A DNA stretch of 64,000 bases from Candidatus Omnitrophota bacterium (GCA_028692655.1 JAQUWY010000004.1:933-64932), one strand, 5' to 3'. Positions 22,625 to 47,219 are shown, counted from the first letter of the stretch. Translations and numbers: made by a program. The notes: generated by a model not told the origin, from the letters alone.

Positions 22625-22696
22625 GGCGCGGTAGCCAAGCGGCAAGGCGACGGTCTGCAAAACCGTTACACACCGGTTCAAATCCGGTCCGCGCCT
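22625..22696 (+). tRNA. tRNA-Cys (anticodon GCA)
   Basis: Acceptor GGCGCGG/CCGCGCC, anticodon arm ACGGT-CTGCAAA-ACCGT, T-arm ACCGG-TTCAAAT-CCGGT. Confidence 0.85.
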
Positions 22697-22914
22697 GTGT
22701 AAAGTCGATAGTCCATAGACTATAGTCGATAGAAAAATAGGGGATCTAAATTTGGAAAATTAACAGTTTGGCAAAAGGCAATGAAGCTTTTACAGGTTAA
22801 GGCAGAAGAAATTGTGGAAATAATTTCTGAACTACGCAACTCTCTTAGACAAAAATTGTTCTTTCATATATATGGACTATGGACTATTAACTATCGTCTA
22901 TTGACTTTATTATT

Positions 22915-23000
22915 GCCGGAGTGTCGAAACTGGCAAACGATCTGGACTTAAAATCCAGCGCTCCGTAAGGAGCTTGTGGGTTCAAGTCCCACCTCCGGCA
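22915..23000 (+). tRNA. tRNA-Leu (anticodon TAA)
   Basis: 86 nt. Acceptor GCCGGAG/CTCCGGC, anticodon arm CTGGA-CTTAAAA-TCCAG, long variable arm (CTCC/GGAG stem), T-arm GTGGG-TTCAAGT-CCCAC. Confidence 0.85.
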
Positions 23001-23116
23001 GTCTAATTTTGCCTTTGGCAAAATTAGACAGAGCAATTGAGTAATAGACAATAGAACAATAGATGAAATAACTCAATTGCGGTCTATTTTCTATTGCTCT
23101 ATTGTTCTTTTTAGCT

Positions 23117-23200
23117 AGGCATCTCGGATATGTATCCTCGATGCCGATAAAAAATAAGGAATGACCCTGCATAGTTATCTTTTTTATCGGGCGATTAGCT
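23117..23200. repeat. tRNA-upstream element U (about 72 bp) fused to a duplicated 12-nt 5' end of tRNA-Val
   Basis: AGGCATCTCGG...GATGCCGATAAAAAATAAGGAATGACCCT... is about 70% identical to the 23845-23915 element just upstream of tRNA-Asp. It is followed by GGGCGATTAGCT, the first 12 nt of the tRNA-Val at 23388. Confidence 0.6.
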
Positions 23201-23387
23201 TCCCGCACAAACCCCATTTATACGGGACTTTCCGCCAAAAGCGGAATCCCGCTAAACAAATACATCGAGTAGCGGGAAATTCGACCAAACAACTTTTATG
23301 CACCTACGGTTTTAAAAGTTGTGGTCTCATTGAGCAGTTGGTAGTGGTTATTGTAAGCGCAAGGTTTTATAAAAGTGCTAAACTTTC

Positions 23388-23461
23388 GGGCGATTAGCTC
23401 AGTTGGCTAGAGTATCTCCTTGACATGGAGGGGGTCACAGGTTCAAGTCCTGTATCGCCCA
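23388..23461 (+). tRNA. tRNA-Val (anticodon GAC)
   Basis: 74 nt. Acceptor GGGCGAT/ATCGCCC, anticodon arm TCTCC-TTGACAT-GGAGG, T-arm ACAGG-TTCAAGT-CCTGT. Confidence 0.85.
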
Positions 23462-23769
23462 TGTTTTTTTGATGGCATGCCGGCGGTAACCGGCAGCAGG
23501 TTCCCCCGTACCAGAACTCGCTTTGCTCGTTCGGTCCGGGGTTAATTCGACCAAGCAATTTTTCTTCACTTCGTTTGAAAAAATGCGGTCTCATTGAAAA
23601 GTCCTGTATCGCCCATGTTTTTTTGATGGCATGCCGGCGGTAACCGGCAGCAGGTTCCCCCGTACCAGAACTCGTTTTGCTCGTTCGGTCCGGGGTTAAT
23701 TCGACCAAGCAATTTTTCTTCACTTCGTTTGAAAAAATGCGGTCTCATTGAAAAGTCCTGTATCGCCCA
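23447..23769. repeat. tandem array of two 154-bp units, each starting with the last 15 nt of tRNA-Val, plus a terminal third 15-nt copy
   Basis: GTCCTGTATCGCCCA occurs at 23447, 23601 and 23755. The intervening 139 bp are near-identical (one C/T difference) and carry the hairpin core shared with the tRNA-Glu repeats. Confidence 0.9.
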
Positions 23770-23915
23770 TGTTTTATAAATAAAGAAACAATCTTGGTTG
23801 ACATTTATAAATTATTTTATAAAATACATCAAGCAAAGAACATTAGGCATTACGGGTCAATACCCTCAATGCCGTGAAAAAACAAGGAATAACCCTTAAT
23901 GTTTTCATTCTTTCC

Positions 23916-23991
23916 GGGGTCGTCGATTAGCCTGGTTTAAGTCCCCTGCCTGTCACGCAGGTGATCGTGGGTTCAAATCCCATCGACCCCG
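23916..23991 (+). tRNA. tRNA-Asp (anticodon GTC)
   Basis: 76 nt. Acceptor GGGGTCG/CGACCCC, anticodon arm CCTGC-CTGTCAC-GCAGG, T-arm GTGGG-TTCAAAT-CCCAT, discriminator G. Confidence 0.85.
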
Positions 23992-24118
23992 TAGTTTTAT
24001 TTGCTCTATTAAGGTGGGCGGGACAACTCGAGGTTCAAAGTAATTACAGAGCCTAATACATTATTTGGCAATGGTTTTGTTCTTTGGCTAAGCTTCGGCT
24101 TTGCCGAAGATCATTGAC

Positions 24119-24423: not shown

Positions 24424-26247
24424 ATGATCAATATCATCAACAAGGAAGATTGTAATGGCTGTTGTGCTTGTGTTGATATCTGTGGTCAAAATGCAATTAC
24501 TCTTAAGATAGACCACGAGGGATTTTGGTATCCAGAGGTAGATAAGAGCCTTTGCATTAGCTGCGGGTTGTGTGAGAAAATCTGTCCGCAAATTCATTCA
24601 GATAAGATAAATAAGCTTAACAAAGAAAATCCTATTTGTTTTGCTGCTTATCATAGAGACAAAGGCGTTCGGTTGGATAGTACCAGTGGAGGAGTTTTTT
24701 CTGCTTTAGCAAATAAGATGTATGATGTTGGAGGTTATATCTCCGGGGCTATTTATGGCAAAGACTTTTCTGTACATCATATAGTGTCTAACAAACGCGA
24801 GGACTTGAGAAAAATAAGAAGCTCCAAATATCTTCAAAGTTCCTGCGAGGGGGTCTACAAAGAAATAAAAAGGCTTCTTGAAGAGAAAAAAAGGGTGTTG
24901 GCTTCCGGCACTCCCTGCCAAATGGCAGCCTTGCGTCTTTATTTAGAAAAGGATTATGAGAGCCTAACCACCTGTGATTTTGTTTGCCGGGGAGTTAATT
25001 CTCCAAAAGTTTTCCGTAAGTATTTGGACGCACTAGAAGAAAGGCACGGTTCCAGGGTGGTTTACGTCAAAGCAAAAGACAAGAAGCATGGGTGGAGAAG
25101 CCTGACCTTTAAGGCCGCATTCGAAAATGGCCAACTTTATTATGGAAACGGCATAGAGGACAATTTTACACGCGGCTATTTAAGAACAGGGTATTATTGC
25201 AGGCCTTCTTGCCTGGAATGCAAATTTAAAAAAATGCCGCGAATTGCTGATATTACAATCGGAGATTTTTGGGGCATTGAAAACGTGGTCCCCTCATTTG
25301 ATGATAATCTTGGTACTTCTTTAGTGATGTGTAACACGGCAAAGGGTTGTGCTGTTTTTGACGCAGTTAAAAATGAGTTACAAATACACAAAGCTACGGT
25401 AAAAGATATTGAGCAAGGAAACCCTCACCTGCGTGTTCCTATCAGCAATCCACAGACAATGCGAAAGGCTTTTTTTTCGGATCTGGAAAATATGACTTTT
25501 CCGAGAGCTGCTGCAAAGTATTTTCCCAAACCGGGACGCAAACTGGGCCATATGAAAGCAAAAATAAAAAAAACCCTTAAAGATGCACGCATTTTTTATC
25601 AAACGATGAAATTTTCGCCCAGGGCTTGGGCTCAGTTTTTCTGGATCAATTTCTTTCGAAGGAATACCGTATCCAAGTTATTAAAAATGCAGGTTATACT
25701 TCCAACACCCTATTGTGTGTTCGATATTCACCCGTCTGCTAAAATTGTTGTAAAAGGCTTAGTTGTTTTTGGGCTCAGCAAAATCCGGGGGTCTCGATTG
25801 GAGACTAGAATGCGCATAGATAAAGGAGCTCGGTTACATTGCAACGGCGGATTCACAATGTATGCTGGAGCAGATATCCAAATTTTCCCAGGGGGGGTGC
25901 TTACTTTTGAAGGGGGGCCTTATGCCGGATGCAATATTCATTGCCAGATTATCTATGCAGATAACATTCGCATCGGGAGAAGTACTTTAATTTCCAGGAA
26001 CGTTACGTTGAGGGATTATGACGCCCATTATATTATTCTAAAAGGTTACAAGGTTAAGGCCCCGATTATAATTGGAGATCATTGCTGGATTGGCGAGGGG
26101 GCTTTAATTTCCAAGGGGGTAACAATCGGAAACGGTTCAATTGTAGCTGCAAGGTCTTGGGTGACCGCCAATAATATAGCGGCAAAAACCCTTATTATGG
26201 GAAGACCGGCTATACCAATCAGGGAGAATATAGAGTGGGAAGTTTAG
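24424..26247 (+). CDS. fusion of a coenzyme F420 hydrogenase/dehydrogenase beta-subunit (FrhB)-like Fe-S protein with a C-terminal hexapeptide-repeat acyltransferase
   Basis: Two Cx2Cx2Cx3C ferredoxin motifs (CNGCCACVDIC, CISCGLCEKIC) and FrhB-like N/C domains. The last 170 aa or so show left-handed beta-helix repeats (GARLHCNGGFTMYAGADIQIFPGG...IGDHCWIGEGALISKGVTIGNGS). Confidence 0.65.
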   Translation: MINIINKEDCNGCCACVDICGQNAITLKIDHEGFWYPEVDKSLCISCGLCEKICPQIHSDKINKLNKENPICFAAYHRDKGVRLDSTSGGVFSALANKMYDVGGYISGAIYGKDFSVHHIVSNKREDLRKIRSSKYLQSSCEGVYKEIKRLLEEKKRVLASGTPCQMAALRLYLEKDYESLTTCDFVCRGVNSPKVFRKYLDALEERHGSRVVYVKAKDKKHGWRSLTFKAAFENGQLYYGNGIEDNFTRGYLRTGYYCRPSCLECKFKKMPRIADITIGDFWGIENVVPSFDDNLGTSLVMCNTAKGCAVFDAVKNELQIHKATVKDIEQGNPHLRVPISNPQTMRKAFFSDLENMTFPRAAAKYFPKPGRKLGHMKAKIKKTLKDARIFYQTMKFSPRAWAQFFWINFFRRNTVSKLLKMQVILPTPYCVFDIHPSAKIVVKGLVVFGLSKIRGSRLETRMRIDKGARLHCNGGFTMYAGADIQIFPGGVLTFEGGPYAGCNIHCQIIYADNIRIGRSTLISRNVTLRDYDAHYIILKGYKVKAPIIIGDHCWIGEGALISKGVTIGNGSIVAARSWVTANNIAAKTLIMGRPAIPIRENIEWEV

Positions 26248-27179
26248 CAAAAAATAATATAAAAAAAGAAAAAACAATTCTTAATAATGGGATTGAAATA
26301 CCGCCTATTATCCTTGGAACAGCCCATCCGTTGCACGACAAAAAACTGGCTCAAGGGAAAGGGAAAATATGCAATTGCCTGATTCGAATTTTCTATAATA
26401 AAATATACAGCAAATTTCTTGTTTTAAAACAGGTAGTAGCCATAGCCGGTGCAATAAAAATGGGTTACAGGGCCATTGACACTTCAGCTGCCTACGGAAA
26501 TGAAAAGTTTATTAAATGGGGAATTAAGCTAAGCGGCATTAAAAGAAGGGAACTATTTATTACCACAAGAGTGAGCAACCAACAACAGTGGAAGGGGCAC
26601 ATAAAAAAATCCTTGTTAGAATCAATGAGAGCGTTGGGAGTAGATTATGTGGACTTATATATGTTTCACTGGCCGGTAACAGATGTTTTTATTGCTACGT
26701 GGAGGCAGATGGAATCTGTTTATGAAGAAGGGCTGGTAAAATACATTGGTGTCGCGAATTGTCACCAACATCATTTGGAAAAGCTTTTAGCAGGAGCTTT
26801 GGTTGTGCCAGCAATTAACCAGTTTGAGATACATCCATTGATGACCCAGAAGCCGCTCATTGCCTATTGTATGTCAAAGGGAATTGCAGTTGAGGCATAC
26901 ACCCCGATAGGCCGCAATCACGAGAAGCTTATGCGTAATGATATTTTGAAAAAATTATCCAAAAAATACAATAAAACAATTCCCCAAATTATTCTAAGGT
27001 GGCATTATCAAAACAGAATAATATCAGTTCCACGCTCCACTAGCTTTAAACACTTGAAAGAAAATCTTTGCATTTTTAATTTTGAACTTACCCCCGAGGA
27101 AATGAAAAAGATAGATTCAATAAATACTGATTTAAGATTAAGGTATAATCCAGACGATTGCGATTTTAACAAGCTATAG
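26235..27179 (+). CDS. aldo/keto reductase family oxidoreductase
   Basis: Typical AKR N-terminus (ILNNGIEIPPIILGT) and MGYRAIDTSAAYGNE. Confidence 0.8.
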   Translation: MGSLAKNNIKKEKTILNNGIEIPPIILGTAHPLHDKKLAQGKGKICNCLIRIFYNKIYSKFLVLKQVVAIAGAIKMGYRAIDTSAAYGNEKFIKWGIKLSGIKRRELFITTRVSNQQQWKGHIKKSLLESMRALGVDYVDLYMFHWPVTDVFIATWRQMESVYEEGLVKYIGVANCHQHHLEKLLAGALVVPAINQFEIHPLMTQKPLIAYCMSKGIAVEAYTPIGRNHEKLMRNDILKKLSKKYNKTIPQIILRWHYQNRIISVPRSTSFKHLKENLCIFNFELTPEEMKKIDSINTDLRLRYNPDDCDFNKL

Positions 27180-29302: not shown

Positions 29303-30040
29303 ATGGGCAAGCACAAGCGGGTTATCGTAATAGTAGACCACATAGAGTTATTTAAAGAATTTGTTGGTATTATACAACGATTAAAAAATAAGGTGTCATT
29401 TTCTTTTTTTTGCAGCCCAAAAAATAGAAATTTCAAGTTAAAAAAGTTCAAAACTTTTGAGGTAAAAAGCTTAGATGTAAACCAATCTCGGAAATGGGTT
29501 ATCGACAATTGCGATTTAGTTATATCGTTGCACTCAAAACAAATCTTTCCAAGTAAGCTAATAGCCAAGAAAAAGTGCGTCAATGTACACCCTGGCTTCT
29601 TGCCTTACAACAGGGGCTGGTACCCACATATTTTTTCTATTATAAACAAAAAACCTACCGGCGCGACAATACATGAGATGACCAATATATTAGATTTCGG
29701 CCCAATAATTGATAGTCAGGAAATCAAAATAAAACCCGATGATACTTCTGCGTCTTTATATAAAAAGATTTTCAAGGTGGAAGTGAAACTCATAAAAAAA
29801 AATATAGAAAAAATCATTGAGGGGGATTATACAACTGTTATGCCGAATACAAAAGGCAATATAAATTATAAAAAAGACTATTATAAACTTTTACCTATTG
29901 ACAGAAATAAAAAAATTAAAGCCGAAAAAATAATAAATAAGATCAGGGCTTTAACACATGGCGAATGCAGGGGAGCTTATTTTATTGATAAAAATAAGGA
30001 AAAGTTTGAAATTAAAGTGAGCTTACGCAGGGTTAAATAA
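29303..30040 (+). CDS. sugar N-formyltransferase-like protein (formyl_transf N-domain)
   Basis: VNVHPGFLPYNRGWYPHIF matches the HxSLLPxxxG motif of Fmt/WlaRD/VioF-type N-formyltransferases. It follows an aminotransferase. Confidence 0.65.
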   Translation: MGKHKRVIVIVDHIELFKEFVGIIQRLKNKVSFSFFCSPKNRNFKLKKFKTFEVKSLDVNQSRKWVIDNCDLVISLHSKQIFPSKLIAKKKCVNVHPGFLPYNRGWYPHIFSIINKKPTGATIHEMTNILDFGPIIDSQEIKIKPDDTSASLYKKIFKVEVKLIKKNIEKIIEGDYTTVMPNTKGNINYKKDYYKLLPIDRNKKIKAEKIINKIRALTHGECRGAYFIDKNKEKFEIKVSLRRVK

Positions 30041-30203: not shown

Positions 30204-32228
30204 ATGCATAATAATAAATATGTAATAGGAATCGGCTGTATAGGAAGCGGCGTGGGCCAGGCAATTATTGATTCATTGCGGCTGTCCAGGCTACCTCTCA
30301 GAACAGTCGGGCTGGGAACTAATCCGTTTGCTTATGGAGCCTATGATTGCGATACTTACGACTACGTTAAGAGTATATACGATAAAGGATTTATAGATAA
30401 TTTAATTTCTAAGTGCCTTCAGCATAAAATAGATTTTATTATTCCCGGCATGGAAGATGAAGTTCTGTTGTGTGCTAAGAATGCCCATAAATTTAAGGAT
30501 GCCAAAATAAAGGCAATAGTTTCTGATGAAGCGTTAATATCTATTTGCGTAGATAAAGAGAAAATGGGTAAAGAGCTAAGTAAAATTTGCGATGTATTTG
30601 TTAAGAATTACAATAAAGAAACGATAGAACAGGATATTAAAAACAGAGAAGTTTCTTTTCCTCTTATTGCTAAGCCGCGTGCAGGATACGCATCCAAAGG
30701 GATTGAAATTGTCAGAAGTTTAGAAGATTTAGCAAGGATAACCGATGACCACATCATACAAGAGCTTGCTATCCCGGCAGAGGACGATGTAAACTACCAG
30801 TTCTACATGAATCATATAGAAAAAAAACAAAATCCCCAAGTTTCAGAAATTTCTATTCAGCTTGTTTATAGTCCCGAAGGCCAACTAATGGGGCGCATGT
30901 CTTCATATAATAAATTAAAAAATGGTGTACCTATAGAAATAGTGCCATGCAATAATGAATATATCTGGAGCATTGTCGATCAATTAATCCCCACTTTGCT
31001 CAAATTAGGGATGAAGGGGCCGTTAAATATTCAAGGAAGGCTTACGCGGCAAGGTTTTAAAATCTTTGAAATTAACCCCAGGTTTACTGGAATTACCGGA
31101 TTGCGCGCGCTAATGGGTTTTAACGAAGTGGAGGCTTGTGTAAAAGAATGGCTCGGCATCGATAAAGGGAGAAATTTATTAACCCTAAACTATAACCGGT
31201 TTGGAATAAGGCAAGTAGCTGACAAGTCTATTTCTGTTGAAAGAAATAAAGAGGTGGAATCACTTTCCGTGAAATTAAACGGAAGAAATATCAAGGAGAA
31301 AAAAACAGTTCTTATTACCGGCGCTTGTGGGTATCTCGGGCAAAATCTTATAGCTAAATTATGCAAAGAAAAAATGTTTGAGGTGTGGGCGTTTGATCTT
31401 GATAAAGAAAAAATAAAAATGGTCCACGGGGATAGAACTAAGAATAAGTTTAATAAAGAGGACATTAGTTCCGGAATAATTCAATTAGGGAATGTAGATA
31501 TTTTACTGCATCTGGGGTTTACACGACCATATGGCTTGAGCCAGCAAATCGCCGATAGCCTTAGATTTACAAACGAGTTGTTCTCAAGAGCTGCCTTGCA
31601 CCATATACCAGCTATCATCAATATATCTACACAGAGTGTTTATGGAACAGAAGGCACCTTATCGTTGACAGAAAATACTCCTGTTAACCCTCAGACAATT
31701 TATGCCCAGGCCAAATATGCTACAGAACTATTTCTAGAATCTGCAAAAACAAATTTAAAAACATTATGTTATAGCTCTATAAGGCTTGGGACTCTTGCTG
31801 GAGGAGCAAACGGACTGGTTGAAGTAGATTTTTTGTCGAAGATTGCCAGAAGAGCTCTCAAAGGCGAAACTATTTACATTGTAAGCGGTACACAACGAAC
31901 AGAACGAATCGATATCAGGGACGCAATAGAGGCTATTGTTGCAATGCTAAAAGTAAACCATAGAATATGGAGGCCGGTGTATAATTTAGGTTCAGGCAAA
32001 ACATATAGCCTAAAAGAAATAGCAGAAAAAACAATCAATATCAGTTTGAGATATAACGGGGCAAGAAAATCAAAATTGACTATCGAAAATAAAGAGGCCG
32101 ATATACAGCCAGCTATAGATAGTTCGCTTTTTTATAAGGATATGAATTGGATGCCAAAATTCAGCATTGAAGAGAGCATCGAATCGCTGTTTATTTATTG
32201 GCGGAAATCAGGGTTCCCACAAACATGA
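30204..32228 (+). CDS. fusion protein: N-terminal ATP-grasp ligase domain plus C-terminal NAD-dependent epimerase/dehydratase (SDR) domain
   Basis: The ATP-grasp core (LIAKPRAGYASKGIEIV...FEINPRFTG) occupies about residues 1-340. The Rossmann motif VLITGACGYLGQNL starts the C-terminal 300 aa or so. Confidence 0.7.
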   Translation: MHNNKYVIGIGCIGSGVGQAIIDSLRLSRLPLRTVGLGTNPFAYGAYDCDTYDYVKSIYDKGFIDNLISKCLQHKIDFIIPGMEDEVLLCAKNAHKFKDAKIKAIVSDEALISICVDKEKMGKELSKICDVFVKNYNKETIEQDIKNREVSFPLIAKPRAGYASKGIEIVRSLEDLARITDDHIIQELAIPAEDDVNYQFYMNHIEKKQNPQVSEISIQLVYSPEGQLMGRMSSYNKLKNGVPIEIVPCNNEYIWSIVDQLIPTLLKLGMKGPLNIQGRLTRQGFKIFEINPRFTGITGLRALMGFNEVEACVKEWLGIDKGRNLLTLNYNRFGIRQVADKSISVERNKEVESLSVKLNGRNIKEKKTVLITGACGYLGQNLIAKLCKEKMFEVWAFDLDKEKIKMVHGDRTKNKFNKEDISSGIIQLGNVDILLHLGFTRPYGLSQQIADSLRFTNELFSRAALHHIPAIINISTQSVYGTEGTLSLTENTPVNPQTIYAQAKYATELFLESAKTNLKTLCYSSIRLGTLAGGANGLVEVDFLSKIARRALKGETIYIVSGTQRTERIDIRDAIEAIVAMLKVNHRIWRPVYNLGSGKTYSLKEIAEKTINISLRYNGARKSKLTIENKEADIQPAIDSSLFYKDMNWMPKFSIEESIESLFIYWRKSGFPQT

Positions 32229-33475: not shown

Positions 33476-35230
33476 CTATTTGGCTGTGACCCAATATCCT
33501 TGGAGATAAAGTGCATCAATACCGCAATCGAGGAAATCGGTGATCGCATCTTCAGGGGTTAATACCATGGCTCGTCCATGGAGATTGAAGGAAGTGTTTA
33601 ATACTACACCGTAACCCGTTAACTGTTTTAATTCGGCCAATACCGAATAAAGAAAAGGCTCTCCTTTTTTTGTAACAAACTGAGGCCGAGCTGTGCCATT
33701 AATATGCGCTATAGCTTCTAAGGCATGGAGGTGTTCATCCCTAAGTTTGAAAGCTGAGGTCATGTGTTTATTTTGATAAGCGGAAACAAAAAGCCGATTA
33801 CATTCCTCAGCTAGCATACTTGGACAAAACGGCTGAAAGCTTTCCCGCCGTTTGATGTGGCCGTTAATACGATTTTTAATTGCTATCCCGCCAGCCGCGT
33901 TAGCCAGAAGAGAGCGATGCCCTAAGGCTCGCGGACCCCATTCTTGTGGCCCCCGGAAAAGAGCCAATATCTTATTATTGAAGATGTGTTTAGCGATACG
34001 TTTTTCACCGTCGGTAATTTTTTCAAATTTAATTTTGTTTCGTTTTGTTTCCAATGCAGACAAAATCTGGTTTTCGGAATAAGACGGTCCCCAAAAAGGC
34101 ATATCATGTTCCTTGATCCAATCGAGATTTTCACCTGCTTCAAGTGCGGCTAAGTAGGCTGCTCCTTGTGCGCTGCCGGAATCGTTCATTGCTGGCATAA
34201 TAAAAATTTGTTCAAAGCCGGCTCGCTCGAAAATAGCTTGATTCATGCTAACATTCCCAAAAATTCCGCCGGCGCACGCTACTTTTCCGCCAAGTTGGTT
34301 ACGCACAGCACGCATATATTCAACTGCTTTATCTTCTAGAAAGGCTTGTATTGTAGCAGCAAAATTCTCTCGGCCTAGCTGATCGCGAAGCGCTGTGAGA
34401 GTGTGTATATTCCAATATTTCAGTAGATAGTTTTCTTTACCTACAATGCTTAAATTTGGCGTAATAGCATATCCCTGCATGAGAGCGTCATATAATTTAG
34501 CACTGGGTGTTCCAAAAGAAGCCAACGCTTCAACTTTGCCTTCGTCCGCGTTGGGGTAATAACCAAGCAAGCGGGTTGCGTTAGCGTAAAGATAACCCCA
34601 TGTCCAGCGCAAATCAGATTTAGCATGTTGTATAACCTTGCCATTTCGTGCATGAAAGACTTTGCTGAAACAGCCATCTCCATAGCCATCCAGCGTTACA
34701 ATGGCACAATCATCAAAGCCGCAATGAAGGTAAGCGCCGACAGCATGACAAGTATGGTGATCATGCAGAGTAATTTTTTTAACCCACGGGAGACGGTTGG
34801 AATTTAATTTTAGCCATGCAGCATCCGTGATTTTTTGATGGCGTATTAAATCAGATTCGGTCAAGGATAAAAATTCCAACCAGCCTTTAACCACATTAGT
34901 TATTTTTGGATCTAGCCTGGAAATCCGTTCCAGTTTCTCTTTGCTCGAGATTAAAGGGTTTCTAAGAATCTCTCGGGCAGGATGTTCTTCAAGGCCAAAA
35001 ACGATTGGCAGCACTTGTCTTAAGCCCTGCAATTCGCTACAGCTGCCAAACGAAAAATGCAATGTATCAAATTTCCGTAAATAATCACCCATTAATGCAA
35101 TATGCCCGCTGTCTCGTTTGATTCGAGTGACACGTTCTAAAGCCAACCCAAATAATGTTTTTGAACTGACGTCAACAATAAAAAGACTTGCATCATGGTG
35201 AACTGGTTTGCACCCGGCGTATCGGCTCAT
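33476..35230 (-). CDS. NodU/CmcH/NovN-family carbamoyltransferase
   Basis: 584 aa with N-terminal HHDASLF and DHHTCHAVGAY motifs and the C-terminal carbamoyltransferase domain. Confidence 0.75.
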   Translation of the reverse strand: MSRYAGCKPVHHDASLFIVDVSSKTLFGLALERVTRIKRDSGHIALMGDYLRKFDTLHFSFGSCSELQGLRQVLPIVFGLEEHPAREILRNPLISSKEKLERISRLDPKITNVVKGWLEFLSLTESDLIRHQKITDAAWLKLNSNRLPWVKKITLHDHHTCHAVGAYLHCGFDDCAIVTLDGYGDGCFSKVFHARNGKVIQHAKSDLRWTWGYLYANATRLLGYYPNADEGKVEALASFGTPSAKLYDALMQGYAITPNLSIVGKENYLLKYWNIHTLTALRDQLGRENFAATIQAFLEDKAVEYMRAVRNQLGGKVACAGGIFGNVSMNQAIFERAGFEQIFIMPAMNDSGSAQGAAYLAALEAGENLDWIKEHDMPFWGPSYSENQILSALETKRNKIKFEKITDGEKRIAKHIFNNKILALFRGPQEWGPRALGHRSLLANAAGGIAIKNRINGHIKRRESFQPFCPSMLAEECNRLFVSAYQNKHMTSAFKLRDEHLHALEAIAHINGTARPQFVTKKGEPFLYSVLAELKQLTGYGVVLNTSFNLHGRAMVLTPEDAITDFLDCGIDALYLQGYWVTAK

Positions 35231-37229: not shown

Positions 37230-38654
37230 ATGCAACGGAACTTAGTTTTTTTGAAAAGCGTATTTGCTGAAAATAGCAAGGTAACCAAACTAGATTCATT
37301 TTTTAGGTGGTTTAATATTCAGAAGGAGAATGTCGACGTCGAAGTAAACAAAATCCCCTTTAATGATTTAGGCTTGTGGTATTTTGACGCTCAGACAAAA
37401 GCTTTAAAGCATCGAAGCAATAAATTTTTCTCAATAGAAGGCATTCGCGTAGAAACAAATTATGGAAAAATACCTAAATGGGACCAACCAATTATTAATC
37501 AACCCGAAATAGGTTACCTGGGACTCATTGCAAAAGAGTTCGATGGGGTTTTACATTTTTTAATTCAAGCCAAGGTAGAACCCGGTAATATAAACTACGT
37601 ACAACTATCGCCGACTTTACAGGCAACTCGCAGTAACTATACTCAGGTACATAGCGGAAAGAAGCCGTTATATTTAGAATATTTTAAAAACGCTAAACCC
37701 CAAGATATTTTACTGGATCAATTGCAGTCAGAGCAAGGCGCTAGGTTTATTAAAAAACGCAATCGAAATTTAATTATAAAGGTCGATAAAGATATACCAG
37801 TTTACGACCATTTTGTCTGGGTGACATTAAAGCAAATTAAAAAGCTGTTACGGTTTGACAACCTTGTCAATATGGACACTAGAGCCGTTATTTCCGGAAT
37901 TACTTTTGGCTATTTCGAGCCGCAGGTAATTAATTTTTTTACTTTTCTTTACAATTCTAATAAAAACCCTATTAACAAAGCATTTCTAAAGTCAGCATTA
38001 CCAAGCAACAGCTCAGTTAATAGCCTCGAAGATATCATTCACTATATCACACAGCTAAAAAGTACTCTCAACCTTAAAATTACCAATATCCCACTTGATC
38101 AGTTAAAAAATTGGACGTTGGGTGAAAACGAAATTTACCATAATGAGCATAAGTACTTTAAAGTATTGGCTATCGATGTAAAGGTAAAAGGACGTGAAAT
38201 AACAAAATGGAGCCAGCCTATGGTTAAACCTGTTCAGGAAGGGTTATGTGCCTTTGTTTGTAAAGAAATTAATGGTTTGCTTCATTTTGTTGTCCAAATC
38301 AAACTAGAGTGCGGGAATTATGACATTGTCGAGCTTGCACCAACGGTACAATGTCTTACGGGGGATTATCCTCTCGCGAGGGAAGGGAAGCTCCCTTTTA
38401 TTGATTATGTATTAAAAGCTAAGCCGGAACAAATTATTTATAATGTTTTGCAGTCAGAAGAAGGAGGCAGATTTTTTAACGAGCAAAACCGGAATATGAT
38501 TGTATTAGCTAACGACGAAGTGTCAAATGAACTTCCGCCAAACTATATCTGGGTAACTTTAAGTCAGCTGCAAACTTTTTTAAAATTCAACAATTACTTG
38601 AATGTTCAAGCCCGTAGTTTGATTTCAGCTATTTCATTTTATAATGAAAGCTAA
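37230..38654 (+). CDS. NDP-hexose 2,3-dehydratase (duplicated-domain EvaA/TylX3/Gra-Orf27 family)
   Basis: 474 aa with an internal duplication (WDQPIINQPEIGYLGLIAKEFDGVLHFLIQAKVEPGN / WSQPMVKPVQEGLCAFVCKEINGLLHFVVQIKLECGN) characteristic of this family. Confidence 0.75.
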   Translation: MQRNLVFLKSVFAENSKVTKLDSFFRWFNIQKENVDVEVNKIPFNDLGLWYFDAQTKALKHRSNKFFSIEGIRVETNYGKIPKWDQPIINQPEIGYLGLIAKEFDGVLHFLIQAKVEPGNINYVQLSPTLQATRSNYTQVHSGKKPLYLEYFKNAKPQDILLDQLQSEQGARFIKKRNRNLIIKVDKDIPVYDHFVWVTLKQIKKLLRFDNLVNMDTRAVISGITFGYFEPQVINFFTFLYNSNKNPINKAFLKSALPSNSSVNSLEDIIHYITQLKSTLNLKITNIPLDQLKNWTLGENEIYHNEHKYFKVLAIDVKVKGREITKWSQPMVKPVQEGLCAFVCKEINGLLHFVVQIKLECGNYDIVELAPTVQCLTGDYPLAREGKLPFIDYVLKAKPEQIIYNVLQSEEGGRFFNEQNRNMIVLANDEVSNELPPNYIWVTLSQLQTFLKFNNYLNVQARSLISAISFYNES

Positions 38655-39633
38655 AACTATAAATATAGGAGTTATCGGTTGCGCCGATATTGCAGAGAGA
38701 TTTGTAATACCGGCCATTAAAAATTTAACCGACCAATATAAATTAGTTGGTGTTGCAAGCCGGGATCAAGCCAAAGCCTTGCAGTCTGCTGTTAAATTTA
38801 GTCTTCAACCTTACTGTGGCTATAATTCATTACTGGAATCGGGGCAGATAGATGCCGTTTATATACCTTTGCCTAGCGCATTGCACCAAGAATGGGCCGG
38901 AAAAGCATTAAAGCTTGGTTTGCATGTATTAGTAGAAAAGTCCTTGGCTTGCAGTTACAAAGAAGTCCAGTGGCTTAACCAACTGGCTAAAAATGAAGGA
39001 TTGGTTTTGATCGAAAACTTTCAATTCCGTTTTCATAGTCAACTAGCTATAATTAGCAAAATGCTTTCCGGAGGGGTTATAGGAGAATTAAGATGTTTGA
39101 GGAGCTCCTTTGGTTTCCCACTATCTCCTGATCCTGGAAATATCCGTTATCAAAAGAATCTTGGAGGAGGTGCTTTGTTTGATGCAGGTGCATACCCAAT
39201 CAAAATTGCCCAGCATTTTCTTGGCTTGAATCTTTCTGTTGAAGCAGCAAATCTTACATTTGACCATATAAATGAGGTAGATATATGGGGAGGAGCATAT
39301 CTTAAACAAAATAACGGAAAGCTTTTTGCAGAGATTGCTTTTGGTTTTGATAACTATTATCAATGCAGTATAGAATTGTGGGGCAGTAAAGGTACTCTTT
39401 GTGCAAAGCGTATTTTTACCGCACCCCCAGGACATTTTCCCGAAATAATTCTTGAAACGGTAAAGGGTATAGAGACAATACGGCTTCAACCCGATCACCA
39501 TTTTAAAAATATATTAAGACATTTTTATCAGCTTATTATTAACCCTAAAAGTTTAGAGGAAGAATATCGGCAAAATGAAAATCAAGCTAGGCTTATTGAA
39601 GAATTACGAATAAAAGCTTATGAGAAACAATAA
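38644..39633 (+). CDS. Gfo/Idh/MocA-family NAD(P)-dependent oxidoreductase (candidate sugar 3-ketoreductase)
   Basis: N-terminal Rossmann IGVIGCADIAERFVIPAI and the family layout. It sits between the 2,3-dehydratase and an aminotransferase. Confidence 0.75.
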   Translation: MKAKTINIGVIGCADIAERFVIPAIKNLTDQYKLVGVASRDQAKALQSAVKFSLQPYCGYNSLLESGQIDAVYIPLPSALHQEWAGKALKLGLHVLVEKSLACSYKEVQWLNQLAKNEGLVLIENFQFRFHSQLAIISKMLSGGVIGELRCLRSSFGFPLSPDPGNIRYQKNLGGGALFDAGAYPIKIAQHFLGLNLSVEAANLTFDHINEVDIWGGAYLKQNNGKLFAEIAFGFDNYYQCSIELWGSKGTLCAKRIFTAPPGHFPEIILETVKGIETIRLQPDHHFKNILRHFYQLIINPKSLEEEYRQNENQARLIEELRIKAYEKQ

Positions 39634-40705
39634 GCCAATTTTTGTCACTAAGCCTTCATTAGCACCGTTAAAGGAATACACAAAAATCCTTAAAGAGGTT
39701 TGGAGAAGAGGCGTACTTACGCACAATGGCCCTCTAGTCCAGTCATTAGAGGAAAAAATATGCAGGAAGTTTGGCCTTAACTATTTTGTAGCGGTTTCCA
39801 ATGGTACCATCGCTCTTCAGATGGCCATTAAGGCCTTGAAACTAAAAGGTGAAATAATCACCACTCCCTTTACATGGATAGCAACAATAAGCGCTATTAA
39901 ATGGCAAGGATGCCAGCCGGTTTTTTGTGATATCGATAGGCATACTTTAAATATTGACCCAGCTAAGATAGAATCTTTGATTACACCTTTGACAACGGCG
40001 ATACTTCCAGTGCATGTTTTTGGTAATCCTTGCGATATAGAAGGAGTAGAAGCTGTAGCTAAGAAGCATAAACTAAAAGTCATTTACGATGCCGCTCATG
40101 CGGTAGGCTCGACCTATAAAGGCAAAAGTATACTTAAATACGGCGATATTTCAGCTATCAGCTTTCACGCAACAAAGTTAATGAATACTGCCGAAGGCGG
40201 AGGATGTGTTGCAAAAAATCGAAAACTTTACGAAAAATTAAAATGTATTCGTTTTTTCGGCTATAATGACCAAAAGAATATGGTAGAGGAAGGGTTTAAC
40301 GGCAAGATGACTGAAGTTCATGCTGGGCTAGGCTTAGCTAATCTAAGATATTACAATAAGGTGCTTTCCGACAGAAAACATAAGTGTTTGTACTATCGCC
40401 AAAAGCTTTCTTCTCTAAAGTTTATTTCGTTTCAAGAATGTAAAACAAACGAGACAAATTACTCTTATTTCCCGGTTATATTTGATTCCGAAAAGAGACT
40501 TATCGCGGTTAAAAAAAAGCTGAATGCCAAAAGAATATTCCCTCGAAGGTATTTCTTCCCTTCAGTAAATACTTACACGAAGAACGATAACTATCGGCCA
40601 GCTCCTATTTCTGAAAGTATATCCAAGAGAATTTTATGTTTGCCTTTATACTGGGAGCTAAAAGTTGATGAAATGAAAAAAATTATAAAACTAATTTCTA
40701 AGTAG
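39620..40705 (+). CDS. DegT/DnrJ/EryC1/StrS-family PLP-dependent sugar aminotransferase (second copy)
   Basis: 361 aa. DAAHAVGS and SFHATKLMNTAEGG. Paralogous to 27976..29118. Confidence 0.85.
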   Translation: MRNNKPIFVTKPSLAPLKEYTKILKEVWRRGVLTHNGPLVQSLEEKICRKFGLNYFVAVSNGTIALQMAIKALKLKGEIITTPFTWIATISAIKWQGCQPVFCDIDRHTLNIDPAKIESLITPLTTAILPVHVFGNPCDIEGVEAVAKKHKLKVIYDAAHAVGSTYKGKSILKYGDISAISFHATKLMNTAEGGGCVAKNRKLYEKLKCIRFFGYNDQKNMVEEGFNGKMTEVHAGLGLANLRYYNKVLSDRKHKCLYYRQKLSSLKFISFQECKTNETNYSYFPVIFDSEKRLIAVKKKLNAKRIFPRRYFFPSVNTYTKNDNYRPAPISESISKRILCLPLYWELKVDEMKKIIKLISK

Positions 40706-40745
40706 AGGTGTGTTATATTAAATTGCTAACATTTTGTGTAAAGCT

Positions 40746-44973: not shown

Positions 44974-45055
44974 ATCAAAGCGAGCCAGAAAGAAAGCAAT
45001 AATAGATAGAGCAAGTTGTAAAAGAATTAAATTGGACAGAAGGCAAATATCGGCG

Positions 45056-47188: not shown

Positions 47189-47219
47189 TTTAAAATGTCC
47201 GGTGATAAAAAAGTATAAA

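What the first reader, a model, noticed from the sequence alone, without database searches (positions are those of the whole stretch)
24424..26247. FrhB-like Fe-S protein fused to a hexapeptide acyltransferase, with a second FrhB-like paralogue beside two pyruvyl transferases
FrhB-like ('F420 hydrogenase beta') proteins of unknown function are a recurring but unexplained partner of polysaccharide pyruvyl transferases. Here one copy (49788..50975) sits next to two pyruvyl transferases (45056.., 47220..) and a radical SAM gene. The other copy is covalently fused to a left-handed beta-helix acetyltransferase domain, an architecture not described for this family. This suggests the Fe-S/flavin module acts directly on an acylated or ketal-substituted sugar.
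Basis: partly seen in the sequence, partly recalled or inferred. Interest (0 to 1): 0.55.

Follow-up and report, generated by a model that had tools for sequence, protein, structure and literature searches.

The report
Reductase–acyltransferase fusion for glycan tailoring
The gene is a genuine fusion of an iron-sulfur/flavin reductase module with a sugar O-acyltransferase; it belongs to a large, catalogued but uncharacterised family in anaerobes, and its fusion and neighbourhood patterns tie it to pyruvyl transferases and an aldo/keto reductase, suggesting an untested route to lactyl-type decorations on surface polysaccharides.

Summary
Window 24424..26247 (+) is one uninterrupted 607-aa ORF: 2x[4Fe-4S] ferredoxin, FrhB_N/C, a helical linker, and an LbH O-acyltransferase. 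A second FrhB-like gene (49788..50975) sits beside two pyruvyl transferases (PyrT).

The architecture is not rare. At least 120 protein clusters across eight or more phyla share it, and JGI already gives them a two-part name.

New here:
- FrhB modules split into an LbH-associated clade (fused or adjacent split genes) and a PyrT-only clade. The window has one of each.
- The same modules are fused in reverse order, and as recurrent LbH–FrhB–PyrT three-way fusions.
- An NAD(P)H carbonyl reductase lies within 3 genes in 32/37 fusion loci, against 1/25 stand-alone loci. In the window this is the AKR gene that overlaps the fusion's stop codon.
- Carrier-protein cassettes and a DltD-like protein often accompany the fusion elsewhere, but not in this window.

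Best reading: a bifunctional tailoring enzyme. PyrT installs a PEP-derived group, the FrhB module reduces it to a lactyl-type ether (MurA/MurB logic, using ferredoxin), and the LbH module acylates the same unit. Klebsiella K22/K37/K66 data fit this. The chemistry is inferred and the AKR's role is unexplained.

The parts
24424..26247 (+). Whole fusion gene (607 aa): type-2 FrhB-like reductase module plus LbH O-acyltransferase module
   Evidence: Uninterrupted ORF. Domains. Collinear homologues. AF2 model with pLDDT 87. Same ORF in independent assemblies.
24433..24591 (+). N-terminal 2x[4Fe-4S] ferredoxin domain (res 4-56). The two CxxCxxCxxxC motifs are C10/13/16/20 and C44/47/50/54.
   Evidence: Pfam Fer4/Fer4_7. 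All eight Cys are invariant in alignment A1.
24637..25401 (+). FrhB_FdhB_N plus FrhB_FdhB_C core (res 72-326): presumed flavin site and [4Fe-4S] site. Conserved motifs are DSTSGG (86-90), SKYxQS (134-139), PCQ (164-166), and C188, C263, C266.
   Evidence: Pfam. Foldseek matches to FrhB-type subunits, the Fsr N-terminal half and HCAR. The GGV and PCQ motifs align with Fsr and 8rja_E. 37 positions are conserved in both FrhB subtypes.
25462..25656 (+). Helical linker (res 347-411). Its last helix (conserved QFxWINFLRKNT) already belongs to the LbH module, because stand-alone LbH homologues start there.
   Evidence: Secondary structure of the model. Stand-alone LbH representatives match from about res 390-430 onwards. 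Conservation.
25669..26238 (+). Left-handed beta-helix O-acyltransferase module (res 416-605) with invariant R530-D531-x-x-x-H535 and W555
   Evidence: Hexapep and WbbJ/WcaF-like matches. Foldseek matches to NeuO, OatWY and maltose/galactoside acetyltransferases. H535 and W555 align with the D-G-H histidine and the conserved tryptophan of NeuO, which from my own knowledge are its catalytic His and Trp. Both are invariant in A1.
26235..27179 (+). Aldo/keto reductase (YvgN/DkgA-like). Its start overlaps the fusion's stop by 13 nt. It is the most constant partner of the fusion family.
   Evidence: Pfam Aldo_ket_red, 152.6 bits. PDB relatives are YvgN and 2,5-diketogluconate reductase. AKR follows or lies near the fusion in Omnitrophota, Bacteroidota and other lineages, and directly precedes the three-way fusion. 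An AKR, extended SDR or SDR lies within 3 genes in 32/37 fused loci against 1/25 stand-alone loci.
44963..46207 (+). Pyruvyl transferase A (PS_pyruv_trans): the likely partner of the fusion despite a 19-kb distance
   Evidence: Pfam, 111 bits. 13 of its 15 nearest PyrT relatives come from fusion-type loci, the best being 65% identical to the second PyrT of the Omnitrophota relative L001. Suggestive only.
47202..48338 (+). Pyruvyl transferase B (PS_pyruv_trans): the likely partner of the stand-alone FrhB-like gene
   Evidence: Pfam, 149 bits. It sits at offset -2 from the stand-alone FrhB, which is the modal arrangement for stand-alone loci. Its top 4 nearest PyrTs come from stand-alone loci.
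49788..50975 (+). Stand-alone type-1 FrhB-like Fe-S protein (395 aa)
   Evidence: Pfam. 39% identical to the fusion's N-terminal module. Falls in the stand-alone/PyrT clade. Scores higher with the type-1 HMM.
50997..52040 (+). Radical-SAM-like protein next to the stand-alone FrhB (association uncertain)
   Evidence: Pfam Radical_SAM 28.6 bits, below the 29.5 cut-off, with a CNYNCEYC motif. Radical SAM genes also lie next to PyrT/FrhB genes in L081 and on the Pseudobutyrivibrio plasmid.

Best explanation
The gene encodes a genuine bifunctional enzyme that tailors a surface glycan at the cytoplasmic stage. It works as part of a module with the adjacent aldo/keto reductase and a PS_pyruv_trans enzyme, probably the one at 44963..46207.

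Proposed mechanism:
1. The pyruvyl transferase transfers the three-carbon unit of phosphoenolpyruvate to a sugar hydroxyl, as an enolpyruvyl ether or a pyruvate ketal.
2. The N-terminal module takes low-potential electrons, most likely from ferredoxin, through its two ferredoxin-type clusters and the FrhB-type cluster to a flavin. It then reduces that unit to a lactyl-type (1-carboxyethyl) ether. This is the logic of MurA/MurB, carried out with different protein families.
3. The C-terminal LbH module O-acylates a hydroxyl of the same residue or repeat unit. The donor is acetyl-CoA here, and carrier-protein-bound C3-C4 acyl groups in lineages that carry ACP cassettes.

Shown: the domain composition, the intact catalytic motifs, family-wide conservation, and the fusion and neighbourhood network.

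Inferred: the electron donor, the substrate, the lactyl product, and the order of the steps.

Unexplained: the role of the AKR.
For: Real and conserved..

Both modules look catalytically competent. All 12 cluster cysteines and the flavin-region motifs are invariant. H535 and W555 align with the D-G-H histidine and conserved tryptophan of NeuO, its catalytic pair by my own knowledge. The fold matches FrhB/Fsr/HCAR for the N-terminal module and NeuO/OatWY for the C-terminal module.

Functional coupling of FrhB and LbH. FrhB modules that are fused to LbH, or adjacent to a separate LbH gene, form one clade in which fused and split forms are interleaved. Reverse-order LbH-FrhB fusions exist in about 30 clusters.

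Coupling to the pyruvyl transferase. PyrT lies within 6 genes in 24/37 fused, 7/10 split and 18/25 stand-alone loci. LbH-FrhB-PyrT three-way fusions recur at only 40-42% mutual identity (P0212, P0297-P0301 and others). Their FrhB module is the LbH-associated type. FrhB-PyrT fusions are abundant.

Same chemistry in both FrhB types. 37 core positions are shared and only 4 are type-specific on each side.

Lactyl-ether link.
- In Klebsiella, the only 'F420 hydrogenase' gene among 79 K types is in K66, next to a K66-specific pyruvyltransferase.
- K22 and K37 share a pyruvyl transferase plus a 'nitroreductase'.
- The authors note that K22, K37 and K66 carry pyruvyltransferase genes without capsule pyruvylation (PMC4616057).
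- K22 contains 4-O-[(S)-1-carboxyethyl]-GlcA, and the title's wording ('another glycan containing') implies an earlier example, which from memory is K37 (title cited in PMC3857182).
- In Campylobacter, the 234-Da sugar proposed to be glucolactilic acid tracks with a pyruvyl transferase gene in the pgl operon (PMC13232197).

Precedents from established knowledge. MurB reduces an enolpyruvyl ether. The nitroreductase-type domain of FbiB reduces the enolpyruvyl group of dehydro-F420-0. HCAR and BciB show that FrhB-family proteins can use ferredoxin and act on substrates other than F420.
Against: There is no biochemical or genetic datum for any member of this family.

The AKR or extended-SDR partner is specific to LbH-type loci (0/25 stand-alone loci have an AKR or extended SDR). 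The lactyl-ether scheme does not need it, so the real product may be more elaborate.

45% of fusion loci carry ACP cassettes, and an AMP-ligase-PCP-LbH protein exists. These point towards acyl-carrier chemistry in which a reductase could act on the acyl group instead.

In this window the nearest PyrT is 19 kb away, and its pairing with the fusion rests on an unsupported NJ tree and a nearest-neighbour count.

PyrT frequency was not compared with unrelated polysaccharide loci.

The lactyl ether in K66 is from memory and was not verified. I could not read which families the Shigella and E. coli glucolactilic acid genes (wfeP and its partner) belong to.
Confidence: 0.4

Rival explanations
1. Acyl-carrier route. 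The LbH module transfers an unusual C3-C4 acyl group from a carrier protein to the glycan. The FrhB module, together with the AKR or SDR, is a reductase that processes that acyl group (keto, enoyl or 2-hydroxyacyl) before or after transfer. On this reading the pyruvyl transferase is a separate decoration.
For: An ACP gene lies within 6 genes in 18/37-40 fusion loci, most often directly downstream. It comes with KAS III+SDR, FkbH+MaoC+SDR, or an AMP-ligase. P0183 is AMP-ligase-PCP-LbH with an LbH of the same subfamily. UnkX, which recurs in these loci and is fused to the AKR in L039, has a DltD/SGNH-like fold. AKR, SDR and ACP go with LbH and not with stand-alone FrhB.
Against: About half of the fusion loci, including this window, have no ACP cassette. 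The FrhB module shares its whole conserved core with the PyrT-linked stand-alone type. LbH-FrhB-PyrT three-way fusions recur. P0183 is a singleton cluster.
Confidence: 0.2
2. Co-localisation only. The LbH module is an ordinary O-acetyltransferase, and the FrhB module is simply the usual partner of the pyruvyl transferase. The fusion only ensures joint expression or assembly at the membrane, and the two reactions are not chemically linked.
For: Both domains resemble self-sufficient enzymes. The predicted inter-domain arrangement is uncertain (pTM 0.61). Polysaccharide loci often fuse unrelated tailoring domains (own knowledge).
Against: LbH-associated FrhB modules form their own clade, and fusion has arisen in both gene orders. 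A specific reductase partner accompanies only this clade. The LbH belongs to a dedicated subfamily: 43 representatives at E<=1e-30, against generic LbH hits near 1e-10.
Confidence: 0.2
3. Activate-then-reduce deoxygenation. The AKR or SDR reduces a carbonyl to a hydroxyl. The LbH module acetylates that hydroxyl to make a leaving group, as serine acetyltransferase does. The FrhB module then removes it reductively, as HCAR removes the hydroxyl of 7-hydroxymethyl chlorophyll.
For: HCAR is among the structural relatives. In the chlorophyll cycle HCAR follows an NADPH-dependent SDR (own knowledge). This rival explains why a carbonyl reductase, an acetyltransferase and a low-potential reductase travel together.
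Against: It is purely an analogy. It gives no role to the pyruvyl transferase that is fused to the pair in the three-way fusions. No such reaction is known for sugars.
Confidence: 0.08
4. A true coenzyme F420-dependent enzyme, as the database name 'F420 hydrogenase/dehydrogenase beta subunit' suggests.
For: Pfam and NCBIfam names. The fold matches F420-reducing subunits.
Against: All NCBIfam F420-enzyme matches are far below their cut-offs, for example FpoF at 36.6 bits against 475. The carriers are Bacteroidales, Clostridia, Lentisphaeria, Fibrobacteria and Omnitrophota, groups not known to make F420 (own knowledge, not tested here). The family also includes ferredoxin-dependent members that do not use F420, namely HCAR and BciB.
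Confidence: 0.03

Closest known systems
FrhB/FdhB/FpoF-type F420-interacting flavin/[4Fe-4S] subunits and the N-terminal half of F420-dependent sulfite reductase (Fsr)
   Same: Same fold, and the same order of ferredoxin domain followed by FrhB N and C domains. The GG and PCQ motifs are conserved.
   Different: Sequence identity is only 14-20%. Scores are far below the NCBIfam cut-offs. The hosts are not known F420 producers. The gene sits in a glycan locus and is fused to an acyltransferase.
7-hydroxymethyl chlorophyll a reductase (HCAR) and BciB divinyl reductase
   Same: These are FrhB-family proteins that use ferredoxin and reduce a substituent of a large non-F420 substrate. They are structural relatives (5dqr, E about 2e-10).
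   Different: The substrate class is different (tetrapyrrole against glycan). They have no LbH fusion. The phylogenetic relation was not tested.
MurA/MurB (UDP-GlcNAc enolpyruvyl transferase and reductase), and the nitroreductase-type domain of FbiB that reduces dehydro-F420-0
   Same: The proposed logic is the same: a PEP-derived enolpyruvyl group is reduced by a flavoenzyme to a lactyl group.
   Different: There is no homology. PS_pyruv_trans is not a MurA-fold enzyme, and FrhB is related neither to MurB nor to nitroreductases. The electron donor is probably ferredoxin rather than NAD(P)H. This is a 'works like' comparison, not a membership claim.
Sugar and polysaccharide O-acetyltransferases of the LbH class (NeuO, OatWY, maltose and galactoside acetyltransferases, WbbJ, WcaF)
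   Same: Beta-helix fold. The His and Trp align with those of NeuO. These are the best sequence and structure matches.
   Different: It falls below every equivalog cut-off (54 bits against 243 for WbbJ). It forms its own subfamily, which is linked to FrhB, and in some lineages to carrier proteins.
Klebsiella K66 cps pair 'coenzyme F420 hydrogenase' (HG203) plus pyruvyltransferase WcqF, and the K22/K37 pair 'nitroreductase' (HG127) plus WclZ
   Same: A flavoprotein gene sits next to a PS_pyruv_trans gene in a polysaccharide locus. Capsule pyruvylation is reported as absent, and K22 carries a lactyl ether.
   Different: These are stand-alone genes with no LbH fusion.
Dlt D-alanylation system (DltA ligase, DltC carrier, DltD SGNH-like transferase)
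   Same: Some fusion loci combine an AMP-ligase, a small carrier protein and a DltD-like protein, UnkX.
   Different: There is no MBOAT (DltB) component. UnkX matches no Pfam family. None of these genes is present in this window.

Membership tests
FrhB/FdhB family (Pfam PF04422 + PF04432) | Both Pfam domains score above their gathering cut-offs | tested here: met
   FrhB_FdhB_C 73.1 bits (cut-off 23.3). FrhB_FdhB_N 23.2 bits (cut-off 22), only marginally above.
FrhB/FdhB family (Pfam PF04422 + PF04432) | Fold of an FrhB-type subunit | tested here: met
   Foldseek: 8rja_E 2.9e-14, Fsr 7np8 6.8e-11, FrhB 9r51_B/6qii_B, HCAR 5dqr 2.4e-10. The model has pLDDT 87.
FrhB/FdhB family (Pfam PF04422 + PF04432) | Cysteine ligands for the FrhB-type [4Fe-4S] cluster and the flavin-region glycine motif | tested here: inconclusive
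   C165, C188, C263, C266 and S86-G90 are invariant. The PCQ and GGV motifs align with Fsr and 8rja_E. Ligand identity was not checked against coordinates.
F420-dependent enzymes (FrhB, FpoF, FdhB equivalogs) | Score above the NCBIfam equivalog cut-offs | tested here: not met
   FpoF 36.6 bits against 475. PRK09326 35.7 bits against 444.
F420-dependent enzymes (FrhB, FpoF, FdhB equivalogs) | Uses coenzyme F420 as substrate | not testable with these tools
   The carrier taxa are not known F420 producers (own knowledge). F420 biosynthesis genes were not searched for.
LbH (hexapeptide) sugar O-acetyltransferases | Hexapeptide repeats and a left-handed beta-helix | tested here: met
   Hexapep 30.4 bits (cut-off 27) and Hexapep_2 28.8 bits (cut-off 27). 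Short beta-strands repeat through res 425-598 of the model. Foldseek matches to NeuO and OatWY.
LbH (hexapeptide) sugar O-acetyltransferases | Catalytic histidine and the conserved tryptophan of the acceptor/CoA site | tested here: met
   H535 aligns with the D-G-H histidine of NeuO, and W555 with its conserved tryptophan. That these are NeuO's catalytic residues is from my own knowledge. Both are invariant in 38 family members.
WbbJ / WcaF equivalogs | Score above the equivalog cut-off | tested here: not met
   WbbJ 54 bits against 243. WcaF family 50.4 bits against 192. TIGR04008 42.4 bits against 326.
FrhB-LbH fusion family (JGI: 'acetyltransferase-like isoleucine patch superfamily enzyme/coenzyme F420-reducing hydrogenase beta subunit') | Full-length collinear similarity with the same domain order | tested here: met
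   At least 120 clusters, 45-67% identical, with 97-100% coverage (only a few partial sequences, such as P0089 at 72%, cover less). Alignment A1 has conserved columns in both modules and in the linker.
FrhB-LbH fusion family (JGI: 'acetyltransferase-like isoleucine patch superfamily enzyme/coenzyme F420-reducing hydrogenase beta subunit') | The FrhB module belongs to the LbH-associated (type 2) clade | tested here: met
   NJ tree. Type-2 HMM 413.9 bits against type-1 HMM 312.2 bits. No bootstrap support was computed.
FrhB-LbH fusion family (JGI: 'acetyltransferase-like isoleucine patch superfamily enzyme/coenzyme F420-reducing hydrogenase beta subunit') | An NAD(P)H carbonyl reductase gene adjacent | tested here: met
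   The AKR gene 26235..27179 overlaps the fusion's stop codon. 32/37 fused loci have an AKR, extended SDR or SDR within 3 genes.
MurA/MurB-type lactyl ether synthesis (functional analogy only) | Homology to MurA or MurB | tested here: not met
   No MurA or MurB family appears in the Pfam, NCBIfam or fold matches. The claim is 'works like', not membership.
MurA/MurB-type lactyl ether synthesis (functional analogy only) | The product is a 1-carboxyethyl (lactyl) ether | not testable with these tools
   Only literature correlations are available, from Klebsiella K22/K37/K66 and Campylobacter.

The most novel reading that the evidence does not exclude
PS_pyruv_trans plus FrhB-like pairs are the ferredoxin-driven route that anaerobes use to make lactyl (1-carboxyethyl) ethers on polysaccharides, a non-homologous counterpart of MurA/MurB. 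The LbH-fused subtype, together with its obligatory AKR or SDR partner (and in many lineages a carrier-protein cassette and a DltD-like protein), forms a four-to-six-enzyme module. That module would build a still undescribed, reduced and acylated three-carbon decoration on the capsules or LPS of gut Bacteroidales, Clostridia and Omnitrophota.
Probability: 0.3. Interest if true: 0.7.

Novelty: new variant of a known kind. Interest (0 to 1): 0.5.

Why it matters
Capsule and O-antigen loci of gut and rumen anaerobes are full of genes labelled 'F420 hydrogenase beta subunit', in organisms that are not known to make F420, and nobody knows what they do.

The network found here links four activities by gene fusion and by neighbourhood: pyruvyl transferase, FrhB-like reductase, LbH acyltransferase and aldo/keto reductase. 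That turns a vague co-occurrence into a concrete hypothesis that can be tested in cultured, genetically tractable Bacteroides.

If the lactyl-ether idea holds, it would assign a biosynthetic route to a class of acidic sugar substituents known since the 1970s in Klebsiella, Shigella, Butyrivibrio and cyanobacterial polysaccharides (the last three from my own knowledge). It would also improve the prediction of glycan structure from sequence.

For this window in particular, the value is modest. It is one more member of a large family, although it conveniently carries both FrhB subtypes and two pyruvyl transferases in one locus.

Tried and rejected
1. Frameshift or missed-stop artefact: rejected. 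The ORF is continuous, homologues are collinear, and independent assemblies agree.

2. 'Unique architecture': rejected.

The 'wfeP' search returned only noise.

4. Identity of the two confirmed glucolactilic acid genes of Shigella boydii 17 and E. coli O124: the relevant papers are not held. I had no sequence with which to query the E. coli genome collection, so this test of the lactyl hypothesis could not be done.

5. K66 capsule structure: the reference title does not state the substituent, so the K66 lactyl ether remains a recollection.

6. ACP gene next to the fusion in this window: none found with a locus-derived ACP HMM.

7. Pfam assignment for UnkX, for window 43840..44973, and for window 48390..49787: none above threshold.

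8. My first census labelled single modules as 'FUSION', because the iterated HMMs had absorbed full-length proteins. I corrected this with per-module HMMs.

9. Co-evolution of PyrT subtypes with FrhB subtypes: the signal is only modest (24/13/7/15), and the trees have no support values.

10. A role for the AKR within the lactyl-ether scheme: I found none. It remains unexplained.
Full report

Window 24424..26247 (+) is one uninterrupted ORF of 607 codons.

Pfam finds the following domains:
- Two ferredoxin-type 4Fe-4S motifs (res 4-56).
- FrhB_FdhB_N (res 72-141; 23.2 bits, just above the cut-off of 22).
- FrhB_FdhB_C (res 156-326; 73 bits).
- Hexapep (res 548-581; 30.4 bits against a cut-off of 27).

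NCBIfam aligns res 463-604 with WbbJ/WcaF-type O-acetyltransferases, far below their equivalog cut-offs.

The AlphaFold model, built from a 38-sequence alignment, has mean pLDDT 87. It shows an alpha/beta N-terminal part, helices at 347-411, and a beta-helix from about residue 425 to 598.

- The C-terminal part is an LbH acyltransferase by sequence and by fold.
- The junction is not a frameshift. At least 120 homologues of 596-637 aa are collinear across it. The identical ORF is present in an independent Logan assembly and in an NCBI MAG record.

The second copy (49788..50975, 395 aa) has the same ferredoxin plus FrhB_N/C composition and is 39% identical to the fusion over 366 residues. The two flanking genes 44963..46207 and 47202..48338 are PS_pyruv_trans. 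The 'radical SAM' gene 50997..52040 scores just below Pfam's threshold but carries a CxxxCxxC motif.

**2. How unusual is the architecture?**

It is not unusual in sequence space.
- The 120 best hits in the 5.8-billion-protein collection nearly all have the same length (a few are partial sequences) and the same Pfam content, at 45-67% identity. JGI names them 'acetyltransferase-like isoleucine patch superfamily enzyme/coenzyme F420-reducing hydrogenase beta subunit'.
- In one-genome-per-species GTDB contigs, full-length fusions occur in Omnitrophota (62% identity, the nearest relative), Lentisphaeria, Bacteroidota, Verrucomicrobiota, Fibrobacteria, Lachnospiraceae (including Murimonas intestini DSM 26524), Synergistaceae and Psychrilyobacter. 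The Bacteroidota include cultured B. intestinalis, B. cellulosilyticus DSM 14838 and B. propionicigenes.
- A search of the 50%-identity representative library with only the linker plus LbH part gave 43 representatives at E<=1e-30. About 30 full-length fusions were among the best 150.

I found no paper describing the fusion or assigning a function to FrhB-like genes in polysaccharide loci.

**3. Are both modules likely to be active?**

In the family alignment the following are invariant:
- The eight cysteines of the two ferredoxin motifs.
- The four cysteines of the FrhB part (C165 in PCQ, C188, C263, C266).
- The DSTSGG and SKYxQS motifs.

The GG and PCQ motifs align with those of Fsr and of an F420-reducing subunit of known structure.

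Foldseek matches the N-terminal module to FrhB-type subunits, FdhB, the N-terminal half of Fsr, and HCAR. It matches the C-terminal module best to the polysialic acid O-acetyltransferases NeuO and OatWY, followed by maltose and galactoside acetyltransferases.

H535 aligns with the D-G-H histidine of NeuO, and W555 with its conserved tryptophan. That these are NeuO's catalytic residues is from my own knowledge. Both positions are invariant in the family.

**4. Context in the window**

The fusion is the first gene after a tRNA cluster. It opens a roughly 38-kb glycan locus with this gene order:
- The AKR gene, which overlaps the fusion's stop codon by 13 nt.
- A methyltransferase, a DegT aminotransferase and a formyltransferase.
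- An ATP-grasp/epimerase fusion, and a carbamoyltransferase on the opposite strand.
- An NDP-hexose 2,3-dehydratase, a 3-ketoreductase, an aminotransferase and a PglD-like acetyltransferase.
- An ABC exporter, then PyrT, GT2, PyrT, a PP-loop-like protein, the stand-alone FrhB and a radical-SAM-like protein.
- Glycosyltransferases, an IS element, two GT9 genes and an O-antigen-ligase-like protein.

A locus-derived ACP HMM found no carrier-protein gene in the window.

**5. Context in relatives**

Pfam-annotated neighbourhoods and a census of 83 loci with home-made HMMs give a consistent picture.

| Feature near the FrhB gene | Stand-alone (25 loci) | Fused to LbH (37 loci) | Split, LbH adjacent (10 loci) |
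|---|---|---|---|
| PyrT within 6 genes | 18 | 24 | 7 |
| AKR, extended SDR or SDR within 3 genes | 1 | 32 | 6 |
| AKR or extended SDR within 6 genes | 0 | 30 | 3 |
| ACP within 6 genes | 1 | 18 | 3 |
| UnkX within 6 genes | 0 | 12 | 4 |

- Stand-alone FrhB-like genes typically sit in the order PyrT, Wzx-type flippase, FrhB. PyrT lies within 3 genes in 17/25, with a modal offset of -2.
- In fused loci the ACP is most often the next gene downstream. It comes with KAS III+SDR, with FkbH+MaoC+SDR, or with an AMP-ligase.
- UnkX matches no Pfam family. Its high-confidence model (pLDDT 93) is closest to DltD and other SGNH-type acyl transferases and esterases, at E-values of 1e-4 to 1e-2. It is fused to the AKR in L039.

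Annotated records of cultured bacteria show the stand-alone arrangement too: the Desulfotalea psychrophila plasmid and Pseudobutyrivibrio xylanivorans pNP95.

**6. Fusion network**

- In several Bacillota loci, an LbH gene of about 205 aa and an FrhB gene of about 395 aa lie next to each other, in either order.
- P0215 and about 30 further clusters are LbH-FrhB fusions in the reverse order. The P0215 cluster has six members from several samples.
- LbH-FrhB-PyrT three-way fusions recur. These include P0212 and P0297-P0301 (983-1003 aa, only 40-42% identical to P0212, with P0298 on at least five contigs), and further variants. In L092 and L093 an AKR gene ends 9 nt before the three-way fusion begins.
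- FrhB-PyrT two-domain fusions are very abundant. P0351, for example, has 888 member sequences.
- P0183, a singleton, is AMP-ligase-PCP-LbH with an LbH of the same subfamily.

**7. Two FrhB subtypes**

A neighbour-joining tree of 84 FrhB modules, without support values, separates two groups.
- The LbH-associated clade holds 41 fused and 11 split modules, interleaved, with two exceptions.
- The other clade holds the stand-alone and PyrT-fused modules.

HMMs built from the two clades classify the window's fusion as type 2, its paralogue as type 1, and the reverse-order and three-way fusions as type 2.

The catalytic core is nevertheless shared. 37 positions are at least 90% conserved in both types, and only four positions are type-specific on each side. 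That argues for the same kind of reaction.

The window's PyrT at 44963 has 13 of its 15 nearest relatives in fusion-type loci. Its best hit, at 65% identity, is the second PyrT of the Omnitrophota relative. The PyrT at 47202 has its four nearest relatives in stand-alone loci. This suggests two FrhB/PyrT pairs in one locus. The general co-evolution signal is only modest, with concordance counts of 24/13/7/15.

**8. What does it do?**

Shown: a conserved protein with two apparently competent active sites. It is functionally tied, through independent fusions and through neighbourhood, to a PS_pyruv_trans enzyme and to an NAD(P)H carbonyl reductase.

Inferred:
- The N-terminal module is a low-potential reductase: ferredoxin, then three clusters, then flavin. 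The carriers are anaerobes not known to make F420 (own knowledge). FrhB-family members such as HCAR and BciB use ferredoxin on substrates other than F420 (own knowledge).
- Its substrate is the PEP-derived group installed by the pyruvyl transferase, which it reduces to a lactyl-type ether.

Three published correlations fit this:
- Among 79 Klebsiella K types, the single 'F420 hydrogenase' gene is in K66, next to a K66-specific pyruvyltransferase. K22 and K37 share a pyruvyl transferase plus a 'nitroreductase'. The authors note that K8, K22, K37 and K66 carry pyruvyltransferase genes without capsule pyruvylation (PMC4616057).
- K22 contains 4-O-[(S)-1-carboxyethyl]-D-glucuronic acid, described in the title as 'another glycan containing' it (title cited in PMC3857182).
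- In Campylobacter, the 234-Da sugar proposed to be glucolactilic acid is found in species whose pgl operon has a pyruvyl transferase gene (PMC13232197).

[quoted passage not shown] Two glucolactilic acid genes were 'confirmed' in S. boydii 17 (a title cited in PMC5643014). I could not read which families they belong to.

MurB, and the nitroreductase-type domain of FbiB, are precedents for flavoenzymes that reduce enolpyruvyl groups to lactyl groups (own knowledge).

The LbH module would then acylate the same residue or repeat unit. The donor would be acetyl-CoA here, and carrier-bound acyl groups where ACP cassettes are present.

One speculative rationale for the coupling is that acylating the neighbouring hydroxyl prevents ketal closure. 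Another is that reductive opening of a ketal frees a hydroxyl, which is then acylated.

**9. What does not fit?**

The AKR or extended-SDR partner, specific to LbH-type loci, has no role in the simple lactyl scheme. The carrier-protein cassettes and the DltD-like UnkX point to a richer acyl chemistry.

I therefore give the specific mechanism a confidence of 0.4. The rivals are:
- Acyl-carrier processing: 0.2.
- Mere co-localisation of two independent activities: 0.2.
- Activate-then-reduce deoxygenation modelled on the SDR/HCAR pair: 0.08.
- True F420 dependence: 0.03.

**10. Verdict**

The window's gene is one member of a widespread, database-catalogued but biochemically uncharacterised fusion family, so the instance itself is not novel.

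The family differs from every characterised FrhB-type or LbH enzyme in its context and its partners. The fusion network assembled here makes the long-standing 'F420 hydrogenase in capsule loci' puzzle directly testable. Interest: 0.5.

Noticed in passing
window 48390..49787 (+): A 465-aa protein with no Pfam family above threshold but a PP-loop-type SGGKDS motif (weak PP-loop, QueC and NAD synthase hits, E about 0.05). It occupies the position between PyrT and the stand-alone FrhB where other genomes have the flippase. It may be an ATP-dependent amidating or adenylating enzyme for a carboxyl group.
   Followed up: partly
window 50997..52040 (+); L081 13486..14301; L091 5711..6883: Radical-SAM(-like) genes recur beside PyrT/FrhB genes in three unrelated lineages: this window, the Omnitrophota relative, and the Pseudobutyrivibrio plasmid pNP95. 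The window's copy is below Pfam's cut-off but has a CxxxCxxC motif.
   Followed up: partly
L004 14277..15221, L087 10761..11810, L022 14398..15435, L039 8206..10041: 'UnkX' is a family of about 300-370 aa with no Pfam match and an N-terminal hydrophobic helix. N-x-G-S is invariant. Its confident AF2 model is closest to DltD and SGNH acyl transferases/esterases. It recurs only in LbH-type FrhB loci and is fused to an AKR in some Bacillota. It is absent from this window.
   Followed up: yes
L092 10966..14464; L093 10021..13519: Directly downstream of the LbH-FrhB-PyrT three-way fusion lie a cytidylyltransferase-PEP mutase fusion and a TPP decarboxylase-Fe-ADH fusion. These are phosphonate (hydroxyethyl- or aminoethylphosphonate-type) genes, so a second PEP-derived decoration is encoded in the same operon.
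   Followed up: no
L081/L082 3006..5222: In the Omnitrophota relative, a 738-aa Epimerase/GDP_Man_Dehyd protein has its domain hits split by a faint LAGLIDADG_3 hit. This may be an intein inside a sugar nucleotide dehydratase.
   Followed up: no
window 30204..32228 (+): A 674-aa fusion of an ATP-grasp domain (PylC-like N-terminal part, ATPgrasp_Ter) with an NAD-dependent epimerase/dehydratase domain. This is an unusual pairing inside the same glycan locus.
   Followed up: no
window 29303..30040, 33476..35230 (-), 37230..41417: The locus also encodes a sugar N-formyltransferase and a carbamoyltransferase (on the opposite strand). It further encodes a complete 2,3-dehydratase, 3-ketoreductase, aminotransferase and PglD-like acetyltransferase set for a 3-acetamido-2,3,6-trideoxyhexose-type sugar. 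The glycan is predicted to be heavily decorated.
   Followed up: no
window 55380..56123 (+): An IS-type integrase (rve, HTH_21) is inserted in the glycan locus between the GT1 and GT9 genes.
   Followed up: no
window 22625..23992 (+): A cluster of four tRNA genes (Cys, Leu, Val, Asp) lies immediately upstream of the fusion gene, which therefore heads the glycan locus.
   Followed up: no
window 26235..27179 (+): The AKR has an insertion of about 35 residues after its N-terminal beta-hairpin, relative to the solved YvgN and DkgA structures (matches start at res 67-69). Its annotated GTG start overlaps the fusion's last codons, and the true start codon was not verified.
   Followed up: partly
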